Sequence record: NC_073085.1
Direction: 5' to 3' (one strand)
Source of the DNA: Escherichia phage vB_EcoS_011D5
Length of the DNA: 45,204 nucleotides
The notes below the pieces were generated by a model. The model searched no databases. It was not told the origin of the DNA and saw only the letters and a program-made list of their open reading frames with translations. Every line of letters starts with the position of its first letter. Positions within the stretch are counted from its first letter, which is position 1. This document shows, piece by piece, positions 13,499-42,952 of this stretch. Both the position numbers and the translations under genes were made by a program.

Positions 13499-13536
13499 TA
13501 GTCCCAGTGAGATAAAACTTACTGGGACTTTTTTTA
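13499..13536 (+). terminator. Hairpin plus T-run abutting the start of the lysis cassette
   Basis: AGTCCCAGT...ACTGGGACT followed by TTTTTTT directly before the ATG at 13536. Confidence 0.55.
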
Positions 13537-13826
13537 TGGATAAGCTAAACGAGTGGCTATTCGCCCTGGCATGTCTGGCGGGTGGCTTCGTAGGCGCACG
13601 CATTCATGGCGAGGCTACGAAGGGGCCGCTAAACTTCGTTTTGTATGTCGTAGTTGGCTTCCTGTGTGCCATATTTGGCGCACCGGCTATTGCCGAGTGG
13701 GCTGGTTTGTCGGGGGAGCGCACTGTCGCCGGTTTGGGCTTCGTGACCGCAATTTTCTGGATGCCAATCGCCGACCGGATCAGGGAGACTATTGCGTCGT
13801 TCCGACTTCCGGGGGGTGCAAAATGA
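13536..13826 (+). CDS. Holin-like membrane protein (2-3 TM segments)
   Basis: Hydrophobic segments LFALACLAGGFVGA, FVLYVVVGFLCAIFGAPAI, GLGFVTAIFWMPI; immediately upstream of endolysin. Confidence 0.6.
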   Translation: MDKLNEWLFALACLAGGFVGARIHGEATKGPLNFVLYVVVGFLCAIFGAPAIAEWAGLSGERTVAGLGFVTAIFWMPIADRIRETIASFRLPGGAK

Positions 13827-14068
13827 TTATCTCCGTCCTGTTGTTTGTTATCATCGGGGCTTCGTCCCTGTTTAACGTGTATGCGCCGTCCGTCCAGGAT
13901 GGCATTTTCGGTCGGGTGCTGTATCTGTTAACGGCAATGGTCTGTATTATCGGACTGTTGCAAACAGGAGACGTATCTGATACCACCTGGACCGCGTTAA
14001 TATGGCTGTTTGCATTGCGCACACTGCGTAATGCTGTTTTGAATGGGGTAAAACATGCGATTCAGTGA
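13823..14068 (+). CDS. Second holin/antiholin-like membrane protein
   Basis: MIISVLLFVIIGASSLF...VLYLLTAMVCIIGLL...ALIWLFAL; overlaps neighbours. Confidence 0.55.
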   Translation: MIISVLLFVIIGASSLFNVYAPSVQDGIFGRVLYLLTAMVCIIGLLQTGDVSDTTWTALIWLFALRTLRNAVLNGVKHAIQ

Positions 14069-14546
14069 CAACGGTCTAAGATTTACGGCAGCATGGGAGG
14101 CTTTCAGCCCGGTGCCGTATTTCGCGACCAAGAAAGAGCAGGCCCGCGGCCTGTACACCTGGGGTTATGGTCATACCGGCACTAATCCGCCTCGAAGCAT
14201 TACCCGAGAAGAAGCGCTGGCACTGCTCAAGCGCGATGTGGCGTATGCCGAGGATTGGGTGAACAAATACGCTCATAAGAGCATTAACCAGGCGCAATTT
14301 GACGCGCTGGTGGACCTGGTAATCAATGCCGGTCCGGGTCCGATCGTACCGGATGACGTCGCGAATGATTTCGATGACGCTGTGCGGTTGGGCGACTGGG
14401 CGAAGGTCCGTGCTACGCTGCCGCTGTTCCGCAAGCAAGGCGGGGAAGTGCTTAAGGGTCTGGTACGCCGTGCAATCGGCAGACAGGCGTTGTTTGATGG
14501 TAAGCAGTGGGACGTTGCCGAGCGAATCGGTCGTAACGCAGCATAA
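14055..14546 (+). CDS. Endolysin, GH24/T4-lysozyme-like
   Basis: Catalytic-region pattern AAWEAF...YTWGYGHTG; 163 aa; follows holin-like genes. Confidence 0.8.
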   Translation: MRFSDNGLRFTAAWEAFSPVPYFATKKEQARGLYTWGYGHTGTNPPRSITREEALALLKRDVAYAEDWVNKYAHKSINQAQFDALVDLVINAGPGPIVPDDVANDFDDAVRLGDWAKVRATLPLFRKQGGEVLKGLVRRAIGRQALFDGKQWDVAERIGRNAA

Positions 14547-14562
14547 TACGAGGGGACACGAT

Positions 14563-14964
14563 ATGTTAGATTCGATCTTGCGACGTAAAGAACGCATTAT
14601 CAAGACACTGCCCGCAGTGCAGAACCCAGAAGCGCGCCGCATCCTGGCGGGCGATATGAATATTTCAGGAGTCTTTGACAAGGCGGTGCCTGAAGGGACG
14701 CCGGTGGCGAGCGCTACCGTTACCATCACGCCAGCTACCGCCGCAGTTGGTGAGACAGCCGCCGCGACTGTTGCCATCCTGCCATCCGGCGCTACCAACA
14801 AGGCCGGGTCGTGGGTGTCTGCTAACCCTAACCGCGCCTCAATCAATCCGACTACCGGCGAAATCACCGCGAAAGCTGCGGGTAACGTCCGCATCGTTTG
14901 GGTGGCGTCAGACGGTAGCGGGGTGCAGGCTGACGCAGGCTTCACAGTAACGGCAGCAGAGTAA
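14563..14964 (+). CDS. Bacterial Ig-like (Big_2-like) domain protein
   Basis: C-terminal Ala/Thr-rich beta-sandwich-like ATVTITPATAAVGE...NVRIVWVASDGSGVQADAGFTVTA. Confidence 0.5.
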   Translation: MLDSILRRKERIIKTLPAVQNPEARRILAGDMNISGVFDKAVPEGTPVASATVTITPATAAVGETAAATVAILPSGATNKAGSWVSANPNRASINPTTGEITAKAAGNVRIVWVASDGSGVQADAGFTVTAAE

Positions 14965-14970
14965 ACCAAC

Positions 14971-14996
14971 AAGCCCGGTTAATTCCGGGCTTTTTA
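14971..14996 (+). terminator. Intrinsic terminator
   Basis: AGCCCGG-ttaatt-CCGGGCT followed by TTTTT. Confidence 0.7.
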
Positions 14997-15059
14997 TTGC
15001 TTGACTTGCAACCAACATAGACGCCATACTGCGACCAATCAACGAGAGGAGTAATCACG

Positions 15060-15140
15060 ATGGCACGTAAAGATATTTGGGTATTAGCGATCTGGACCAC
15101 CGCGGCTTTTATCGGCATGGTTATTTGCGAATTGATATAG
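15060..15140 (+). CDS. Small hydrophobic peptide (26 aa)
   Basis: RBS GAGAGGA 9 nt upstream; MARKDIWVLAIWTTAAFIGMVICELI. Confidence 0.3.
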   Translation: MARKDIWVLAIWTTAAFIGMVICELI

Positions 15141-15201
15141 CCCGCCGCCATACGGACCGTGGTATATTGTCCACGGTCCACTAATCAGGAATTAATTAAA
15201 T

Positions 15202-16344
15202 ATGCACCCGCAAACTAAAATTACCGATGAGCAATTGATCGCAGAAATTCAGGCAGGGACTACGGTTAGAGAGATCGCGAAGAAATACGGCATTGCACTT
15301 CGAAACGTCTACATGCGCAAAGCCCGCCTATCGAAAAAGGGGATTGGTCACGGCAATGATGCCGTAATCCGTAAGCGCGTTGCCGATGGCTTTGGGGTTA
15401 AGCGCGTATCGGCCCTGGTGCGCGGCAATGGCGAAGAGGTCATGTCGTGGGTCATCACTGAGCAGGACAAGGAGCGCCAACTCGAAGCTATGCGCGCTGT
15501 TGTCGAGGGTATGAACAGCGAAATCACACCGGCAGCGCCAGTAAACGCCCCGCCAGTCCCTACCCAGGCGCTCGACTTGCTAAACCTGTACACGGTGTCG
15601 GACTTCCACCTGGGTATGCTGGCATGGGGTGAGGAGACTGGCGAAGACTGGGATATGGCTATTGCGGAAGACCTGTTCTACCGCTGGTTTGTCGAAGCCT
15701 TCGCCCGCGCGCCGGACGCAGGCACTGCCGTCATCAATATCCTCGGTGATATGGCACACTTTGATAGCCTTGATGCCGTCACCCCCGCCAGCGGGCACGT
15801 ACTGGATGCAGACACTCGATACCAGAAGTTGGTCCGCTATATGATACGCATGGTGCGCAACGTCGTAGACCTGGCGCTGCAAAAACACCATAAAGTAAAA
15901 CTGCTAATCGTCCAGGGTAATCATGACGAATCGGGTATGATTTGGCTTGCTGAGATGTTCAGCACCCTGTATGAGAACGAGCCGCGCGTCGATGTGGATA
16001 CGTCCCCGGACGTCTACAAAATGGTGCAGCACGGTAAGACCACGCTGTTTTTCCACCACGGGCACAAAGCGCGATTCGATGCTATCGAGCAGGTTATGAT
16101 CGCCAAATTCAGACAGGCGTTCGGGTCGAGCGAATACAGCTACGCGCACGTAGGTCATTTGCACCACCAGAAGATTGTCGAGTCTCGCAACATGATTGTT
16201 GAACAGCACCGGACGCTCGCAGCGAAAGACGCCTACGCCAGCCGCGGCGGCTGGATGAGCGGTCGCAGTGCCAACGTCATTACCTACAGCGCCAACTACG
16301 GCGAAGTAGCGCGCTTAACCATTAGCCCGGAAATGTTGAAATGA
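15202..16344 (+). CDS. HTH domain fused to a calcineurin-like metallophosphoesterase
   Basis: N-terminal HTH TTVREIAKKYGIALRNVYMRKARL; phosphoesterase motifs SDFHLG, ILGDMAHFD, VQGNHDE, FFHHGH, VGHLHH. Confidence 0.7.
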   Translation: MHPQTKITDEQLIAEIQAGTTVREIAKKYGIALRNVYMRKARLSKKGIGHGNDAVIRKRVADGFGVKRVSALVRGNGEEVMSWVITEQDKERQLEAMRAVVEGMNSEITPAAPVNAPPVPTQALDLLNLYTVSDFHLGMLAWGEETGEDWDMAIAEDLFYRWFVEAFARAPDAGTAVINILGDMAHFDSLDAVTPASGHVLDADTRYQKLVRYMIRMVRNVVDLALQKHHKVKLLIVQGNHDESGMIWLAEMFSTLYENEPRVDVDTSPDVYKMVQHGKTTLFFHHGHKARFDAIEQVMIAKFRQAFGSSEYSYAHVGHLHHQKIVESRNMIVEQHRTLAAKDAYASRGGWMSGRSANVITYSANYGEVARLTISPEMLK

Positions 16345-16553
16345 TCAGACAAGTATTCATGAGCACGCAGGCCGCACGCCTGAAAGAACTACGCAAACAA
16401 CTGGAAGGATTGCGCCGATTCGAACGAACGGCAGCGGCAGTCGGTATGTCGATGGATGAGCGAATCGAGATACTGTCGCAAATACGCTACACAGAGGGCG
16501 CTATACGCGAAGTACAAAGCATGTTAACCCGATACTACGGGCGCGACGTTTAA
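16341..16553 (+). CDS. Small coiled-coil hypothetical protein
   Basis: ATGA overlap with upstream gene; 70 aa. Confidence 0.45.
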   Translation: MIRQVFMSTQAARLKELRKQLEGLRRFERTAAAVGMSMDERIEILSQIRYTEGAIREVQSMLTRYYGRDV

Positions 16554-16649
16554 ACCGCATAGCCTGCCGATTTGGTGGGCTTTTTTGTGCCTGTTATAAT
16601 CCCCCTTAGATGGCAGGGCCGTCTCCTATGTTGCCGATGGTCGGCGCAT

Positions 16650-17222
16650 ATGAACAAAAGGGCTTATATCATGGCAGAAATCAAAGTTAAGGGCCGACGC
16701 GCCAAACTGGACGGACGAGTAGCAGTAACCCCGCGCCGTAAACCAGGCGAGCAAACCGAGCACACCAATCTCGGACCTGAAATAGAGTACGGAAAGCGCC
16801 GTAAAGGCGGCAAATGTGGACGCCCTACTGACTACAGATCCGTCTACTGCGACCAGCTTCGCCGCTATTTTGCCGACGCCGACGCCTGGCAGGTCAACTA
16901 CTCAGATAAAGGCGCTGCGCAAGTAATCCCCCGCAACAAAATGCCAACCTTCGGGCGATTTGCCGCGGAAATAGGCGTGGGTGTAGCTTGCCTGTATCGC
17001 TGGGCGCGTGCGCATGAGGAGTTCGCCGAGGCGATGGCTGACGCTATGGAGTTGCAGAAAACCTTCCTGATGGAAGCTGGCGGTGTGACCATCGCGGCGG
17101 GCTTCGCTACATTCCTGCTTAAAGCAAACCACGGCGTCCGCGACGATGTGCCGCTGGATGACGACGAAGATGATAACGGCGACGTCGTTGTGGAACCTAC
17201 CGGCAAAGGCCAGGGCGAATAA
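16650..17222 (+). CDS. Terminase small subunit
   Basis: HTH-like MPTFGRFAAEIGVGVACLYRWARAHEEFAEAM typical of TerS; directly upstream of TerL; acidic C-terminus. Confidence 0.7.
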   Translation: MNKRAYIMAEIKVKGRRAKLDGRVAVTPRRKPGEQTEHTNLGPEIEYGKRRKGGKCGRPTDYRSVYCDQLRRYFADADAWQVNYSDKGAAQVIPRNKMPTFGRFAAEIGVGVACLYRWARAHEEFAEAMADAMELQKTFLMEAGGVTIAAGFATFLLKANHGVRDDVPLDDDEDDNGDVVVEPTGKGQGE

Positions 17223-18607
17223 TGCGTAACTATGCGGCAGAACACCGCGCACTGGAGCGCGCGATCGCAAAGCGCAACCGACCGCCACGCCCGACACGCG
17301 TTGCGCAGGCCGTCCGCCTTTACCAGCCTGATTGCTTGCCGCACCAGGTTGAACTACTGCGCGACACGAAGACTAAAATCCTCGGCCTGTGTTCCGGCTT
17401 CGGTGGCGGAAAGTCGTGGGTCGCTGCGCGTAAGGTCATCCAGCTTTTAACCCTGAACCCCGGTCATGACGGCATCGTTACAGAACCGACTATTCCCCTC
17501 CTGGTTAAAATCATGTACCCGGAATTGGAAAAGGCGTTTGATGAGGCTGGATTCCGGTGGAAGTTCAATAAGCAGGACAAGATCTATAACGTGCTGGTGA
17601 AAGGGAAATGGACCCGCGTTATCTGTGAATCAATGGAGAACTATACCCGCTTGATCGGGGTTAACGCCGCGTGGATTGTTGCCGATGAATTCGACACTAC
17701 TAAGCAAGACGTCGCGCTGGCGGCATATCACAAATTGCTCGGTCGTCTGCGTGCTGGCTTCGTCCGCCAGTTCGTCATCGTGTCAACGCCTGAAGGCTAC
17801 CGGGCGATGTATCAAATTTTCGAGGTGGAGAAAGACAACCAGAAACGCTTGATCCGGGCGAAGACCACGGACAACCACCATTTACCGGCAGACTTTATCG
17901 ACACGCTGCGTAGTCAGTACCCAGCTAACCTGATCGACGCGTACCTGAACGGCCTGTTTGTTAACCTTACGTCGGGCGCGGTGTACAAGATGTTCAACCG
18001 CGAGGAGAACGCCAGCACCGAAGAAGTGCAGCCGGACGACACGCTGATTATCGGTATGGACTTTAACGTTACGAAGATGGCGGCGGTTGTGTACGTCAGA
18101 CGGCAGCGAGTCACCGAGAACAAGGAGTTCCGAGACGAGATTCACGCGGTGGATGAATTTGTGGACCTGTTTGATACCCCGGCTATGATTGAGGCGATCG
18201 AGGAGCGCTACCCGGATCATTGTGCTGCCGGTCGTGTTGTCGTTTACCCGGATAGCAGCGGCAAATCACGCAAGACGGTCAACGCGTCGTCGTCCGATAT
18301 CGCGCAACTGGAAGACGCAGGCTTTGATGTGGAGTATGACAGCGTTAACCCGCCTGTTAAAGACCGATTGATCGCGATGAATACGATGATGTGCAACTCG
18401 AAGGGCGTGCGCCAGTATTTTGTCAACCTGGATAAATGCCCTACACTAGCGAAATGTCTGGAACAGCAGGTGTACGACCTGAAGAAAGGCGAACCGGATA
18501 AAACTGCCGGTGTGGACCACATGAATGACGCGGCGGGCTACCCTATTGCGCACTTGTTCCCTGTGATTCGTCCGATCGCCGTTGTTCCAGCCGTAGACTT
18601 CTACTAA
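17222..18607 (+). CDS. Terminase large subunit
   Basis: Walker A LGLCSGFGGGKSW; Walker B WIVADEFDT; 461 aa; precedes portal. Confidence 0.85.
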   Translation: MRNYAAEHRALERAIAKRNRPPRPTRVAQAVRLYQPDCLPHQVELLRDTKTKILGLCSGFGGGKSWVAARKVIQLLTLNPGHDGIVTEPTIPLLVKIMYPELEKAFDEAGFRWKFNKQDKIYNVLVKGKWTRVICESMENYTRLIGVNAAWIVADEFDTTKQDVALAAYHKLLGRLRAGFVRQFVIVSTPEGYRAMYQIFEVEKDNQKRLIRAKTTDNHHLPADFIDTLRSQYPANLIDAYLNGLFVNLTSGAVYKMFNREENASTEEVQPDDTLIIGMDFNVTKMAAVVYVRRQRVTENKEFRDEIHAVDEFVDLFDTPAMIEAIEERYPDHCAAGRVVVYPDSSGKSRKTVNASSSDIAQLEDAGFDVEYDSVNPPVKDRLIAMNTMMCNSKGVRQYFVNLDKCPTLAKCLEQQVYDLKKGEPDKTAGVDHMNDAAGYPIAHLFPVIRPIAVVPAVDFY

Positions 18608-41794: not shown

Positions 41795-42265
41795 CTATTG
41801 GTTGCAAGTGAATTTTGCAACGTTTATTGCGTAAATTTTCGGGACCAAATCACCACACGCCCGACGAATTGCCGCGATGTTCTTCTCGCAATCTTCAATG
41901 ATGACCAGTTCCGACACGTCCGCATAGCAGACCATTTTGAACACGGCGCACGCCTTAAACTCTGGCGGCGGGGTGTCGTCCAGCATGTGGCGCATAAACA
42001 ACCGGCCTACCGGGAAGACCTCCAATTGCTCGGCGGTGGTGTCCCAGCATTCTCGCTGCCGGTTGGTCAGATACGCGATCTCGAAGCCTCGCTCTTTGTA
42101 CATGCGCAGCAACGGCAGCATATCCATATTCAGGTCTTCGCGTACGTGCGCCTTGTGCCACTTCGCCCAAAAGGTGGATTTAGTTTTTATACCAGGCACC
42201 AGGTCGGCGCGCGCATCGCTTGAACCGTTAATAACTCCATCCAAATCGCAAATCAGTAATTTCAT
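41795..42265 (-). CDS. HAD-superfamily phosphatase / nucleotidase-like
   Basis: Motif I LICDLDGVI; motif II YLTNR; C-terminal acidic motif IIEDCEKN. Confidence 0.7.
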   Translation of the reverse strand: MKLLICDLDGVINGSSDARADLVPGIKTKSTFWAKWHKAHVREDLNMDMLPLLRMYKERGFEIAYLTNRQRECWDTTAEQLEVFPVGRLFMRHMLDDTPPPEFKACAVFKMVCYADVSELVIIEDCEKNIAAIRRACGDLVPKIYAINVAKFTCNQ

Positions 42266-42486
42266 TTTAGGCTCTCAATAAGGGTGGCTCGGGCGCTACG
42301 CGCGGTGTAAGAGTTGCACACGAAATGACAACGTCGGGTCATGACAAGCCAACCGGTGAGGTCAAGGCCCAGGATGTATTCGGGGCGAGACGCGCGCACC
42401 ACACGATCGCGGCGTGGGTCGATGTTATAGTCTTTTTGCATTTGGTCTACGACCGCGTGGTCGCGGTCAACGATTAAGATATTCAC
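42262..42486 (-). CDS. Small hypothetical protein
   Basis: ORF-track; GTG start overlapping the 3' end of the Dam-like gene. Confidence 0.3.
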   Translation of the reverse strand: MNILIVDRDHAVVDQMQKDYNIDPRRDRVVRASRPEYILGLDLTGWLVMTRRCHFVCNSYTARSARATLIESLK

Positions 42487-42952
42487 GTAGTTCTCCTTCG
42501 CTCATTATTTCAATTTGTGCGCTGCCGATGGGCGGCGCTTCGTCAAAGATTATCAATTGCTGGCACTTGTTATTGCTCGGCCCGACTTCACCGGTTACAG
42601 CATGTATGAATCGGATCCGCCAGTCCAGAAGAATTATCAGGTTTGCAGTCTTCCGGGCCAGCTTCGCCCACTTAGTCGACGTGTCCTGATTCAGTAGCAT
42701 GACGGTCCGGCGTCCGTGCGCTGCGCACTCGACCCACGGCAGCGGATCGGAATACGGCGGATTGCACCACTTCCACCCTTTCAACTCCGACCAGTCCGCA
42801 TCGAGCGCGCTGTGCTCTGCCGTGAAGTAACGCGGCAGCAGGTGGTTTGCGTCGCTCGCCGCCATATCGTAACGGAATCGGTACTTCCGGCGCAGTGGTT
42901 TAAATAAAGCTGGCGGTGTGCGCCAGCTATCTTTTTGCTCATTCTCCGTCAT
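42467..42952 (-). CDS. Phage Dam-type DNA N6-adenine methyltransferase
   Basis: WRTPP...FRYDMAASDANHL...WCNPPYS (NPPY catalytic motif). Confidence 0.8.
   Translation of the reverse strand: MTENEQKDSWRTPPALFKPLRRKYRFRYDMAASDANHLLPRYFTAEHSALDADWSELKGWKWCNPPYSDPLPWVECAAHGRRTVMLLNQDTSTKWAKLARKTANLIILLDWRIRFIHAVTGEVGPSNNKCQQLIIFDEAPPIGSAQIEIMSEGELREYLNR

What the first reader, a model, noticed from the sequence alone, without database searches (positions are those of the whole stretch)
15202..16344. HTH domain fused to a calcineurin-like metallophosphoesterase, sitting between the lysis cassette and the terminase genes
The 380 aa protein has an N-terminal helix-turn-helix and a complete metallophosphoesterase motif set (D-x-H, GD-x-x-HFD, GNHDE, HHGH, GHLHH). 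The GHxH motif is characteristic of class III cyclic-nucleotide phosphodiesterases and Mre11/SbcD-type nucleases. It is not the small terminase, which is the separate gene at 16650-17222. Candidate roles are a DNA-targeted nuclease or phosphatase, or a phosphodiesterase degrading host cyclic-nucleotide immune signals; the second is purely speculative.
Basis: partly seen in the sequence, partly recalled or inferred. Interest (0 to 1): 0.6.

Follow-up and report, generated by a model that had tools for sequence, protein, structure and literature searches.

The report
HTH-tethered metallophosphoesterase, probable phage DNA nuclease
This is a real, strongly conserved phage gene for a DNA-binding domain fused to an intact two-metal phosphoesterase that most resembles DNA nucleases; it belongs to a large, already catalogued but never experimentally studied phage family, so it is an ordinary gene whose function is still unknown.

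Summary
ORF 15202-16344 (+) encodes 380 aa with an N-terminal helix-turn-helix, a small beta-hairpin/helix module, a Pro-rich linker and a complete metallophosphoesterase (MPE) domain. The window is a Dhillonvirus colinear with OM262540.1, where this CDS is already annotated 'putative phosphoesterase'. The protein matches PHROG 704 ('DNA repair exonuclease') end to end (E 4e-162). Relatives occur in 2058 phage records and 4682 50%-identity clusters. Metal ligands are kept in 96-99% of 150 cluster representatives, and 89% keep the HTH.

Adjacency to terminase is not a family trait. Elsewhere the gene lies at the end of replication operons, beside lysis genes, or next to a 3'-phosphatase/kinase pair.

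Best reading: a Rad50-independent, HTH-tethered DNA nuclease of phage DNA metabolism. Nothing supports the cyclic-nucleotide idea, but it is not excluded. Low to moderate interest.

The parts
14971..14992 (+). Intrinsic-terminator-like hairpin plus T-run that closes the lysis/Ig-domain genes upstream
   Evidence: 8 pairs, 6 GC, TTTTATTG tail; identical in OM262540.1.
15001..15030 (+). Sigma-70-like promoter candidate (TTGACT, 18 nt, CATACT)
   Evidence: This is a consensus match only (9 of 12), and 4 sites were found in the region against 3.5 expected, so the evidence is weak. The sequence is identical in OM262540.1.
15060..15140 (+). Unannotated 26-aa hydrophobic ORF (MARKDIWVLAIWTTAAFIGMVICELI) with an RBS, first gene of the small unit
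   Evidence: Against OM262540.1 it is conserved with two residue changes, alongside several synonymous differences.
15154..15179 (+). Perfect 9-bp stem, 8-nt loop hairpin just upstream of the RBS of the MPE gene
   Evidence: Unique in the window; RNA fold -21 kcal/mol, z -2.6. Function unknown. No equivalent was found upstream of homologues in other lineages.
15202..16344 (+). Whole gene: HTH, beta-hairpin/helix module, linker and metallophosphoesterase (380 aa); member of PHROG 704
15202..15357 (+). Residues 1-52: tri-helical HTH of the sigma-70 region 4 / LuxR-GerE type
   Evidence: Helices 9-17, 22-29 and 33-45 in the AF2 model. Pfam/NCBIfam hits across members; GerE in PDB. Retained in 134 of 151 sequences.
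15373..15516 (+). Residues 58-105: conserved long beta-hairpin plus helix module (G77 and W83 nearly invariant), no known fold relative
15517..15567 (+). Residues 106-122: Pro/Ala-rich linker of lower model confidence
15568..16341 (+). Residues 123-380: binuclear metallophosphoesterase domain. Ligands are D134, H136, D183, N240, H286, H319 and H321; the general-acid candidate is H241; H186 is at the position that is nuclease-specific in PdeM. The family-specific loop is T194-P-x-S-G-H-x-L-D202-A-D-x-R206.
16341..16553 (+). 70-aa helical ORF (phrog_20931, unknown function) whose start overlaps the MPE stop (ATGA). It is probably co-translated but is not a conserved partner in other lineages.
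16561..16581 (+). Terminator-like hairpin plus T-run between this small unit and the terminase genes

Best explanation
The gene encodes an active binuclear-metal phosphodiesterase that acts on DNA. It is a stand-alone nuclease, independent of Rad50/SbcC, from the Mre11/SbcD/DP1/PdeM side of the metallophosphoesterase superfamily.

Proposed mechanism:
- Two metal ions (probably Mn2+) are held by D134, H136, D183, N240, H286, H319 and H321 and activate a bridging water.
- H241 protonates the leaving group.
- H186 contacts the scissile or a neighbouring phosphate.
- The N-terminal sigma-r4/LuxR-like HTH and the beta-hairpin/helix module, joined by a flexible Pro-rich linker, hold the catalytic domain on duplex DNA or on a DNA-bound partner. 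The enzyme then cuts nearby single-stranded, end, hairpin or branched DNA.

In the phage it serves DNA metabolism. The likeliest roles are breakdown of host DNA for nucleotide supply or processing of replication/recombination intermediates, not terminase function. In this window it is transcribed in a small unit of its own (26-aa ORF, MPE, 70-aa ORF) bracketed by terminators.

What is shown: the architecture, ligand conservation, fold class, family size and gene contexts. What is inferred: DNA as substrate, the catalytic roles of individual residues, the tethering role of the HTH and the in vivo role.
For: Intact enzyme:
- All five motifs are present.
- Ligands are invariant in 52 and in 71 diverse members and kept in 137-149 of 150 50%-cluster representatives.
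- Purifying selection is strong.

Nuclease-like:
- AF2 model pLDDT is 85.
- NCBIfam PdeM is hit by 19 of 52 members (best E 1.6e-5) and the PolD small subunit by 3.
- Motif II is GD-x-x-H, as in PdeM. In P. putida MPE, H81 at that position and H113 in N-H are essential for DNA cleavage but not for bis-pNPP hydrolysis (PMC7826289). Here H186 is kept in 144 of 150 and H241 in 148 of 150.
- PHROG 704 and 284 carry exonuclease labels.

DNA targeting: the HTH is retained in 89% of representatives.

DNA-metabolism context:
- It is inside the replication module of mEp021.
- It is at the end of the helicase/VRR-NUC/methylase operon in T1-like phages.
- It is a persistent gene in 508 of 522 Drexlerviridae (PMC13164509).
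- It is followed by a HAD_PNKP 3'-phosphatase and a P-loop kinase in Kagunavirus and Webervirus.
- It lies next to DNA ligase in Campylobacter phage F368.

Precedent: the stand-alone MPE gp48 of a mycobacteriophage degrades DNA in vitro and host DNA in vivo (PMC12287305).
Against: - There is no biochemical or genetic datum for any member of this family.
- Matches to PdeM are far below its curated cut-off (10.7 bits against 150 for the query).
- The protein lacks the Mre11/SbcD capping domain, and no Rad50/SbcC gene is in the window.
- The mycobacteriophage enzyme belongs to a different family (phrog_221; hhalign probability 5%), so that precedent is by analogy only.
- The gene often lies beside lysis genes or just after late regulators. 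That position is also typical of accessory genes, and it would be late for a host-DNA-degrading enzyme.
- How the phage's own DNA would be spared is unexplained.
Confidence: 0.5

Rival explanations
1. Counter-defence small-molecule phosphodiesterase. The MPE domain would hydrolyse host immune second messengers (cyclic mono-, di- or trinucleotides, cADPR-type signals, Ap4A-like alarmones), and the HTH would serve only for autoregulation or localisation.
Against: There is no CpdA/Icc-type profile hit in Pfam or NCBIfam and no PADLOC hit. The nuclease-type GD-x-x-H histidine is conserved. A DNA-binding HTH is retained in 89% of members. The gene is persistent in 508 of 522 Drexlerviridae and lies inside replication modules, whereas counter-defence genes are usually patchy. 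The known anti-CBASS and anti-Pycsar enzymes (Acb1, Apyc1) have other folds; this last point is from my own knowledge.
Confidence: 0.1
2. Nucleic-acid end-healing enzyme. The MPE would act as a 2',3'-cyclic phosphodiesterase/3'-phosphatase or an end-cleaning esterase, working with a polynucleotide kinase/phosphatase and a ligase to repair phage DNA, or tRNA cut by host nucleases.
For: HAD_PNKP phosphatase and P-loop kinase genes lie immediately downstream in Kagunavirus (overlapping stop/start) and Webervirus. Ligase is adjacent in phage F368. Bacterial Pnkp uses an MPE-fold phosphatase (CthPnkp appears). PdeM belongs to a ligase-associated repair operon (PMC7826289).
Confidence: 0.12
3. Packaging-associated nuclease. 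The protein would be an accessory to terminase that helps cut or trim concatemers at pac/cos, as the HNH proteins of HK97-like phages do.
For: In this window and in the metagenomic phage L010 the gene lies directly upstream of TerS and TerL, with two unrelated terminase types (phrog_3064/TerL here; Nu1-like/GpA in L010). In L010 it is downstream of a late activator.
Against: In T1-like phages, Webervirus, Jerseyvirus, Kagunavirus, mEp021, 16-3, the Vibrio phage and the Campylobacter phage the gene is not adjacent to the terminase genes; in several it lies in a different module. A terminator separates it from TerS here. It is linked to terminases with different cutting mechanisms, so a terminase-specific partnership is unlikely.
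Confidence: 0.07
4. Primarily a regulator or protein-directed enzyme. The sigma-r4/LuxR-like HTH would bind promoter DNA or RNA polymerase to control late transcription, with the MPE domain acting as a protein phosphatase or sensor. Alternatively the protein has a non-catalytic moonlighting role, like Bxb1 gp47.
For: Some members match Sigma70_r4_2 and sigma70-ECF profiles at E down to 1.5e-9. The gene recurs at the early/late boundary, after a NusG-like or late-activator gene and before holin genes. From my own knowledge, Bxb1 gp47 (an MPE) acts as a recombination directionality factor independently of catalysis.
Confidence: 0.06

Closest known systems
PHROG 704 ('DNA repair exonuclease'), the catalogued phage family that includes the deposited CDS UNY42291.1 'putative phosphoesterase' of phage vB_EcoS_L-h 1M
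   Same: Full-length profile match (residues 5-380 to profile positions 2-390 of 390, E 3.8e-162). The CDS has the same coordinates in OM262540.1 and is 97% identical. Homologues from T1-like phages, Webervirus, Jerseyvirus, Kagunavirus, mEp021, 16-3, Vibrio phages and Campylobacter phages all fall in this PHROG.
   Different: Nothing: it is a member. The family's label comes from remote homology and has not been tested. I found no paper on its function in 10 literature searches.
PdeM / Pseudomonas putida MPE (TIGR04123; PDB 6NVO), Mn-dependent ssDNA endonuclease of the ligase-associated repair operon
   Different: Scores are far below the family cut-off. The phage protein carries about 120 extra N-terminal residues (HTH plus hairpin module) and a roughly 20-residue conserved insert after motif II. 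There is no Lhr/ligase/exonuclease operon in the window.
Mre11 / SbcD and the T4 gp47 type
   Different: There is no capping domain, no Rad50/SbcC/gp46 ATPase gene in the window and no SbcD/Mre11 profile hit. It has an added HTH.
Archaeal PolD small subunit DP1 (3'-5' proofreading exonuclease) and eukaryotic polymerase B subunits
   Different: No OB-fold domain was detected and there is no DP2 partner. The phage polymerase is a family A enzyme.
Cluster A mycobacteriophage MPE (A10ZJ24 gp48, Bxb1 gp47; phrog_221)
   Same: It is a stand-alone phage MPE located among replication genes. It has been shown to be a DNase that degrades host DNA (PMC12287305). This is the nearest experimental precedent in a phage.
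   Different: It is a different family (hhalign probability 5%, only motifs III-V align), has no HTH and is about 255 aa.
Class III cyclic-nucleotide phosphodiesterases (CpdA/Icc, Rv0805)
   Different: There is no family-level profile hit. From the known sequences of these enzymes, motif II does not match their type. No HTH is known in these enzymes.

Membership tests
Calcineurin-like metallophosphoesterase superfamily | Five motifs: DxH, GD, GNH(D/E), H, GHxH | tested here: met
   D134/H136, G182/D183, G239-N-H-D242, H286 and G318-H-L-H321. They are invariant or nearly so in 52, 71 and 150 relatives.
Calcineurin-like metallophosphoesterase superfamily | Beta-sandwich MPE fold | tested here: met
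Calcineurin-like metallophosphoesterase superfamily | Pfam Metallophos or Metallophos_2 at or above the gathering score | tested here: not met
   23.7 bits against 27, and 19.8 bits against 21.5. The family is divergent. I still place it in the superfamily on motifs plus fold.
Calcineurin-like metallophosphoesterase superfamily | Binds two metal ions and hydrolyses phosphoesters | not testable with these tools
   Needs purified protein.
PHROG 704 | Full-length profile match | tested here: met
   E 3.8e-162, 540.8 bits, residues 5-380 to positions 2-390 of 390.
Mre11/SbcD | Partner SMC-like ATPase (Rad50/SbcC/gp46) encoded with it | tested here: not met
   PHROG scan of 20 further ORFs of the window, chosen as its unannotated, replication and DNA-metabolism genes, finds none. 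The 64 other annotated features of the colinear record include none either.
Mre11/SbcD | C-terminal capping domain after the nuclease core | tested here: not met
Mre11/SbcD | Family-level sequence profile match | tested here: not met
   No SbcD/Mre11 model appears among the NCBIfam or Pfam hits for the query or among the 25 families listed for 52 relatives. In the PDB profile search SbcD and Mre11 appear only at E 1.5-3.5.
PdeM (TIGR04123) | Score at or above the curated cut-off (150 bits) | tested here: not met
   10.7 bits for the query; the best relative reaches E 1.6e-5.
PdeM (TIGR04123) | Nuclease-specific histidines (H81 in GD-x-x-H, H113 in N-H) | tested here: met
   H186 (144 of 150) and H241 (148 of 150) occupy these motif positions. 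Their roles in PdeM are from PMC7826289. Equivalence is by motif position: motif III is aligned, while motif II is inferred.
PdeM (TIGR04123) | Operon with Lhr-core helicase, ATP-dependent ligase and exonuclease | tested here: not met
   Not present around the gene in the window. Only the distant F368 homologue is next to a ligase.
Class III cNMP phosphodiesterase (CpdA/Icc) | Family-level profile match and cNMP hydrolysis | tested here: not met
PolD DP1 / polymerase B subunit | OB-fold domain preceding the PDE domain, and a cognate catalytic subunit | tested here: not met
   The preceding module is a beta-hairpin plus helix with no fold relative. The phage polymerase is Pol I-type.
Terminase small subunit | Profile match to TerS families | tested here: not met
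   The MPE protein has no TerS hit. TerS is the separate ORF 16650-17222 (phrog_3064, E 2.6e-73).
Mycobacteriophage MPE (phrog_221; Bxb1 gp47 / A10ZJ24 gp48) | Profile or sequence relatedness | tested here: not met
   Bxb1 gp47 falls in phrog_221, not 704. hhalign probability is 5%.

The most novel reading that the evidence does not exclude
PHROG 704 could be a distinct, mechanistically new class of HTH-guided, Rad50-independent Mre11-like nuclease that is a core function of more than 2000 siphophages. It might, for example, be the long-unidentified enzyme that destroys host DNA in T1-like phages and feeds nucleotide salvage through the adjacent phosphatase and kinase. Alternatively it could be a DNA-anchored enzyme that disarms a DNA- or nucleotide-based host defence.
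Probability: 0.2. Interest if true: 0.55.

Novelty: new member of a known kind. Interest (0 to 1): 0.3.

Why it matters
The family is one of the most widespread phage enzymes without a tested function. It occurs in 2058 of about 50,700 phage records. It is a persistent gene of Drexlerviridae and is also found in Dhillonvirus and Guernseyvirinae. These groups include many phages used for therapy and as models in defence-system research.

Knowing whether it is a host-DNA-degrading nuclease, a repair enzyme or a counter-defence enzyme would fill a gap in the basic biology of T1-like and related phages. It would also correct inconsistent annotations: relatives are currently named 'oxidoreductase', 'DNA polymerase small subunit', 'DNA binding protein', 'winged HTH protein' and 'DNA repair exonuclease'.

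For this window specifically, nothing unexpected is present.

Tried and rejected
- **PDB sequence search with the single protein.** It gave only spurious designed armadillo-repeat hits to residues 67-100.
- **afdb50 fold library.** Unavailable.
- **BFVD fold search.** It returned only uncharacterised or auto-named relatives.
- **A conserved downstream partner ORF.** The small ORFs after the gene in five lineages are unrelated.
- **HNH endonuclease as a partner.** It is present after the gene in Jerseyvirus, mEp021 and a Vibrio phage. These have the HNH motif followed by an AP2-like segment, which I read as homing-type; they are 23-43% identical to the Jerseyvirus protein. The corresponding ORFs in L017 and L018 are not HNH; the L018 ORF looks like an Rz-type spanin. 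This is more likely homing next to a conserved gene than a partnership.
- **A conserved operator or palindrome upstream of the gene across lineages.** None found.
- **Rfam on the locus.** Only sub-threshold terminator-like hits.
- **PADLOC.** No hits.
- **CRISPRi-ART fitness data for phage PTXU04 (PMC11879866).** That phage is an unrelated podovirus. No such gene is annotated in the 50 kb of its 61.6-kb genome that I looked at; I ran no sequence search on it.
- **The 'phosphatase' next to the Avs2 trigger Ksap1 in Dhillonvirus SECphi18 (PMC11564622).** It is the HAD-type gene at 41795-42265, not this MPE.
- **Literature searches for a tested function of this family.** None found.
Full report
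**Observation.** The ORF at 15202-16344 (+) is real and as described: ATG start, 380 codons plus stop. The translation contains D134-F-H136, G182-D183-M-A-H186-F-D188, G239-N-H-D-E243, H285-H-G-H288 and G318-H-L-H-H322.

The window is a Dhillonvirus. It is colinear with Escherichia phage vB_EcoS_L-h 1M (OM262540.1), which has the same length of 45204 bases. That record already annotates a CDS at 15202-16344 as 'putative phosphoesterase', and the two proteins are 97% identical. The two DNA copies differ at 128 of 1143 positions in the gene. Of these, 108 are at third codon positions, and only 3 residues change in the 258-residue catalytic domain. The + frame is therefore under strong purifying selection, and the antisense ORFs listed mechanically have no support.

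The flanks are as stated:
- two holins at 13536-14068;
- endolysin ending at 14546;
- an Ig-domain ORF at 14563-14964;
- TerS at 16650-17222;
- TerL at 17222-18607.

**Local anatomy.** A terminator-like hairpin (14971-14992) closes the upstream genes. A weak promoter-like site follows at 15001-15030, then an unannotated 26-aa hydrophobic ORF with a good RBS (15060-15140), then a perfect 9-bp-stem hairpin (15154-15179). Next come the MPE gene and a 70-aa helical ORF whose ATG overlaps the MPE stop (16341-16553). A second terminator-like hairpin lies at 16561-16581, before TerS. The gene therefore looks like part of a small unit of its own, insulated from both the lysis and the packaging genes. 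This is inferred from sequence signals.

**Family.** The protein matches PHROG 704 ('DNA repair exonuclease') end to end (E 3.8e-162). tblastn finds it in 2058 phage records. These include Dhillonvirus (95-99% identity), Kagunavirus and other Guernseyvirinae (72-81%), Jerseyvirus (about 50%), T1-like Drexlerviridae and Webervirus (42-48%), the temperate phages mEp021 and 16-3, and Vibrio and Campylobacter phages (30-33%). An exhaustive HMMER search finds 4682 50%-identity clusters at E of 1e-3 or better, and 1142 at 1e-30 or better.

In 150 cluster representatives the putative metal ligands are kept in 137-149 sequences. H186 is kept in 144 and H241 in 148. The N-terminal HTH and the middle module are each retained in 134 of 151 sequences.

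**Structure.** An AF2 model built on 71 diverse relatives has pLDDT 85. It shows:
- a three-helix HTH (residues 9-45);
- a long beta-hairpin plus helix (64-104);
- a Pro-rich linker;
- an MPE sandwich (123-380).

Two strongly conserved, family-specific loops have lower confidence. They are 186-206 (T194-P-x-S-G-H-x-L-D-A-D-x-R) and 338-356.

The HTH is of the sigma-70 region 4 / LuxR-GerE / LysR type across the family. The middle module has no detectable fold relative.

**Sequence-level affinity.** Pfam Metallophos models are only sub-threshold. Among NCBIfam models, the one MPE subfamily hit repeatedly by diverse members is PdeM, the ligase-associated ssDNA endonuclease (19 of 52 members, best E 1.6e-5). 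The PolD small subunit follows with 3 members.

In P. putida MPE (PdeM), H81 (three residues after the bridging Asp) and H113 (after the motif III Asn) are essential for DNA cleavage but dispensable for bis-pNPP hydrolysis (PMC7826289). The phage family keeps histidines at both positions. This is the most specific argument for a nucleic-acid substrate, and it is an inference from motif position.

**Partners and context.** The window contains no Rad50/SbcC-like ATPase. Its DNA-metabolism set is Pol I, a gp2.5-like SSB, a PD-(D/E)XK exonuclease (DUF2800), helicase-primase, VRR-NUC, methylases, a HAD-type PNKP-like phosphatase and a small 'ligase'-labelled ORF.

The position next to terminase is not a family trait:
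- It recurs only in metagenomic phage L010, with an unrelated Nu1/GpA terminase and downstream of a late activator.
- In T1-like phages and Webervirus the gene ends the helicase/VRR-NUC/methylase operon just before the lysis cassette. That arrangement was reported as persistent in 508 of 522 Drexlerviridae (PMC13164509).
- In mEp021 it lies between a replication protein/Zn-ribbon protein and DnaB.
- In Jerseyvirus and Kagunavirus it is in an island among tail genes.
- In other metagenomic phages it follows a NusG-like gene, lies between lysozyme and an Rz-like ORF, or precedes the lysis genes.

Immediate neighbours vary:
- HNH endonucleases that I read as homing-type, in three lineages;
- a HAD_PNKP 3'-phosphatase plus P-loop kinase in Kagunavirus and Webervirus;
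- DNA ligase in Campylobacter phage F368.

There is no conserved downstream partner and no conserved upstream operator. The common theme is nucleic-acid metabolism, often at the boundary of the replication and lysis/late modules.

**Literature.** I found no experimental work on this family in ten searches. The nearest phage precedent is the stand-alone MPE gp48 of mycobacteriophage A10ZJ24, a homologue of Bxb1 gp47. It has phosphodiesterase and DNase activity and degrades host DNA (PMC12287305). It belongs to a different PHROG (221) and is only distantly related (hhalign probability 5%).

**Interpretation.** The best-supported explanation (about 0.5) is an active, Rad50-independent binuclear-metal DNA nuclease, tethered to DNA by its HTH and serving phage DNA metabolism. 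Two in vivo roles fit the contexts:
- host-DNA breakdown feeding nucleotide salvage, which fits the adjacent phosphatase/kinase and the mycobacteriophage precedent;
- trimming of replication/recombination intermediates or damaged ends, which fits the PdeM-like features and the ligase/PNKP neighbours.

The rivals are a small-molecule counter-defence phosphodiesterase (0.10), an end-healing phosphatase (0.12), a terminase accessory (0.07) and a regulator or protein phosphatase (0.06). Each has specific counter-evidence, but none is excluded without biochemistry.

**Verdict.** The gene is a typical member of a very large, already catalogued phage family within the metallophosphoesterase superfamily. 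It is not a member of Mre11/SbcD, PdeM, DP1 or CpdA by their defining features, but it most resembles the nuclease members. Novelty is low for this window, since the CDS is already annotated. The family as a whole is a worthwhile, easily testable target because it is so widespread and untested. Interest 0.3.

Noticed in passing
window 15060-15140 (+): An unannotated 26-aa hydrophobic ORF (MARKDIWVLAIWTTAAFIGMVICELI) with RBS GAGAGGAG. Against OM262540.1 it is conserved with two residue changes, alongside several synonymous differences. It is probably a real small membrane protein gene.
   Followed up: partly
window 15154-15179: A perfect 9-bp stem, 8-nt loop hairpin (GGACCGTGG...CCACGGTCC) immediately upstream of the MPE RBS. 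It is unique in the window and has no T-run. Its function is unknown; it could be an RNA processing or stability element or a protein-binding site.
   Followed up: partly
window 14563-14964 (+): A 133-aa Ig-like (Big_2-type; phrog_215 'structural protein with Ig domain') ORF follows holin-holin-lysozyme where a spanin would be expected. I did not identify a spanin in this lysis cassette.
   Followed up: no
whole window against OM262540.1 (L001): The window has the same length and CDS coordinates as the deposited L-h 1M genome but differs at about 8% of positions. Within the MPE gene these fall mostly on third codon positions. Some 1-kb blocks have zero differences (2-4 kb, 29-31 kb), and an out-of-register stretch lies at 27-29 kb. 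The stored record also contains 78 N in its first 39 kb. The origin of this pattern is unclear.
   Followed up: partly
window 42262-42486 (-): A 74-aa ORF lies between a methyltransferase (42467-42952) and a HAD-type PNKP-like phosphatase (41795-42265). It fits the published description of Ksap1, the Dhillonvirus protein sensed by Klebsiella Avs2 (PMC11564622).
   Followed up: partly
L020 3995-6161 (Kagunavirus RP180); L008 4998-7226 (Webervirus): A three-gene cassette, MPE then HAD_PNKP 3'-phosphatase then P-loop kinase, recurs in two different phage families. In RP180 the MPE stop and the phosphatase start overlap. It may be a nuclease plus end-healing or nucleotide-salvage module.
   Followed up: partly
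L018 5308-7673: In one metagenomic phage the MPE gene lies between lysozyme and an ORF with an N-terminal TM segment and an Rz-like C-terminus. The gene is therefore inside the lysis cassette.
   Followed up: no
L013-L015, about 10565-10927 in L013: An Acb2/Tad1-hairpin family gene (a candidate sponge for immune signalling nucleotides) lies just after the lysozyme, three genes downstream of the MPE homologue, in a lambdoid metagenomic phage.
   Followed up: no
L003 6159-6659, L004 6115-6618, L006 7010-7519: Endonucleases with an HNH motif followed by an AP2-like segment, 23-43% identical to the Jerseyvirus protein, sit directly downstream of the MPE gene in Jerseyvirus, mEp021 and a Vibrio phage. 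This is probably homing next to a conserved gene.
   Followed up: partly
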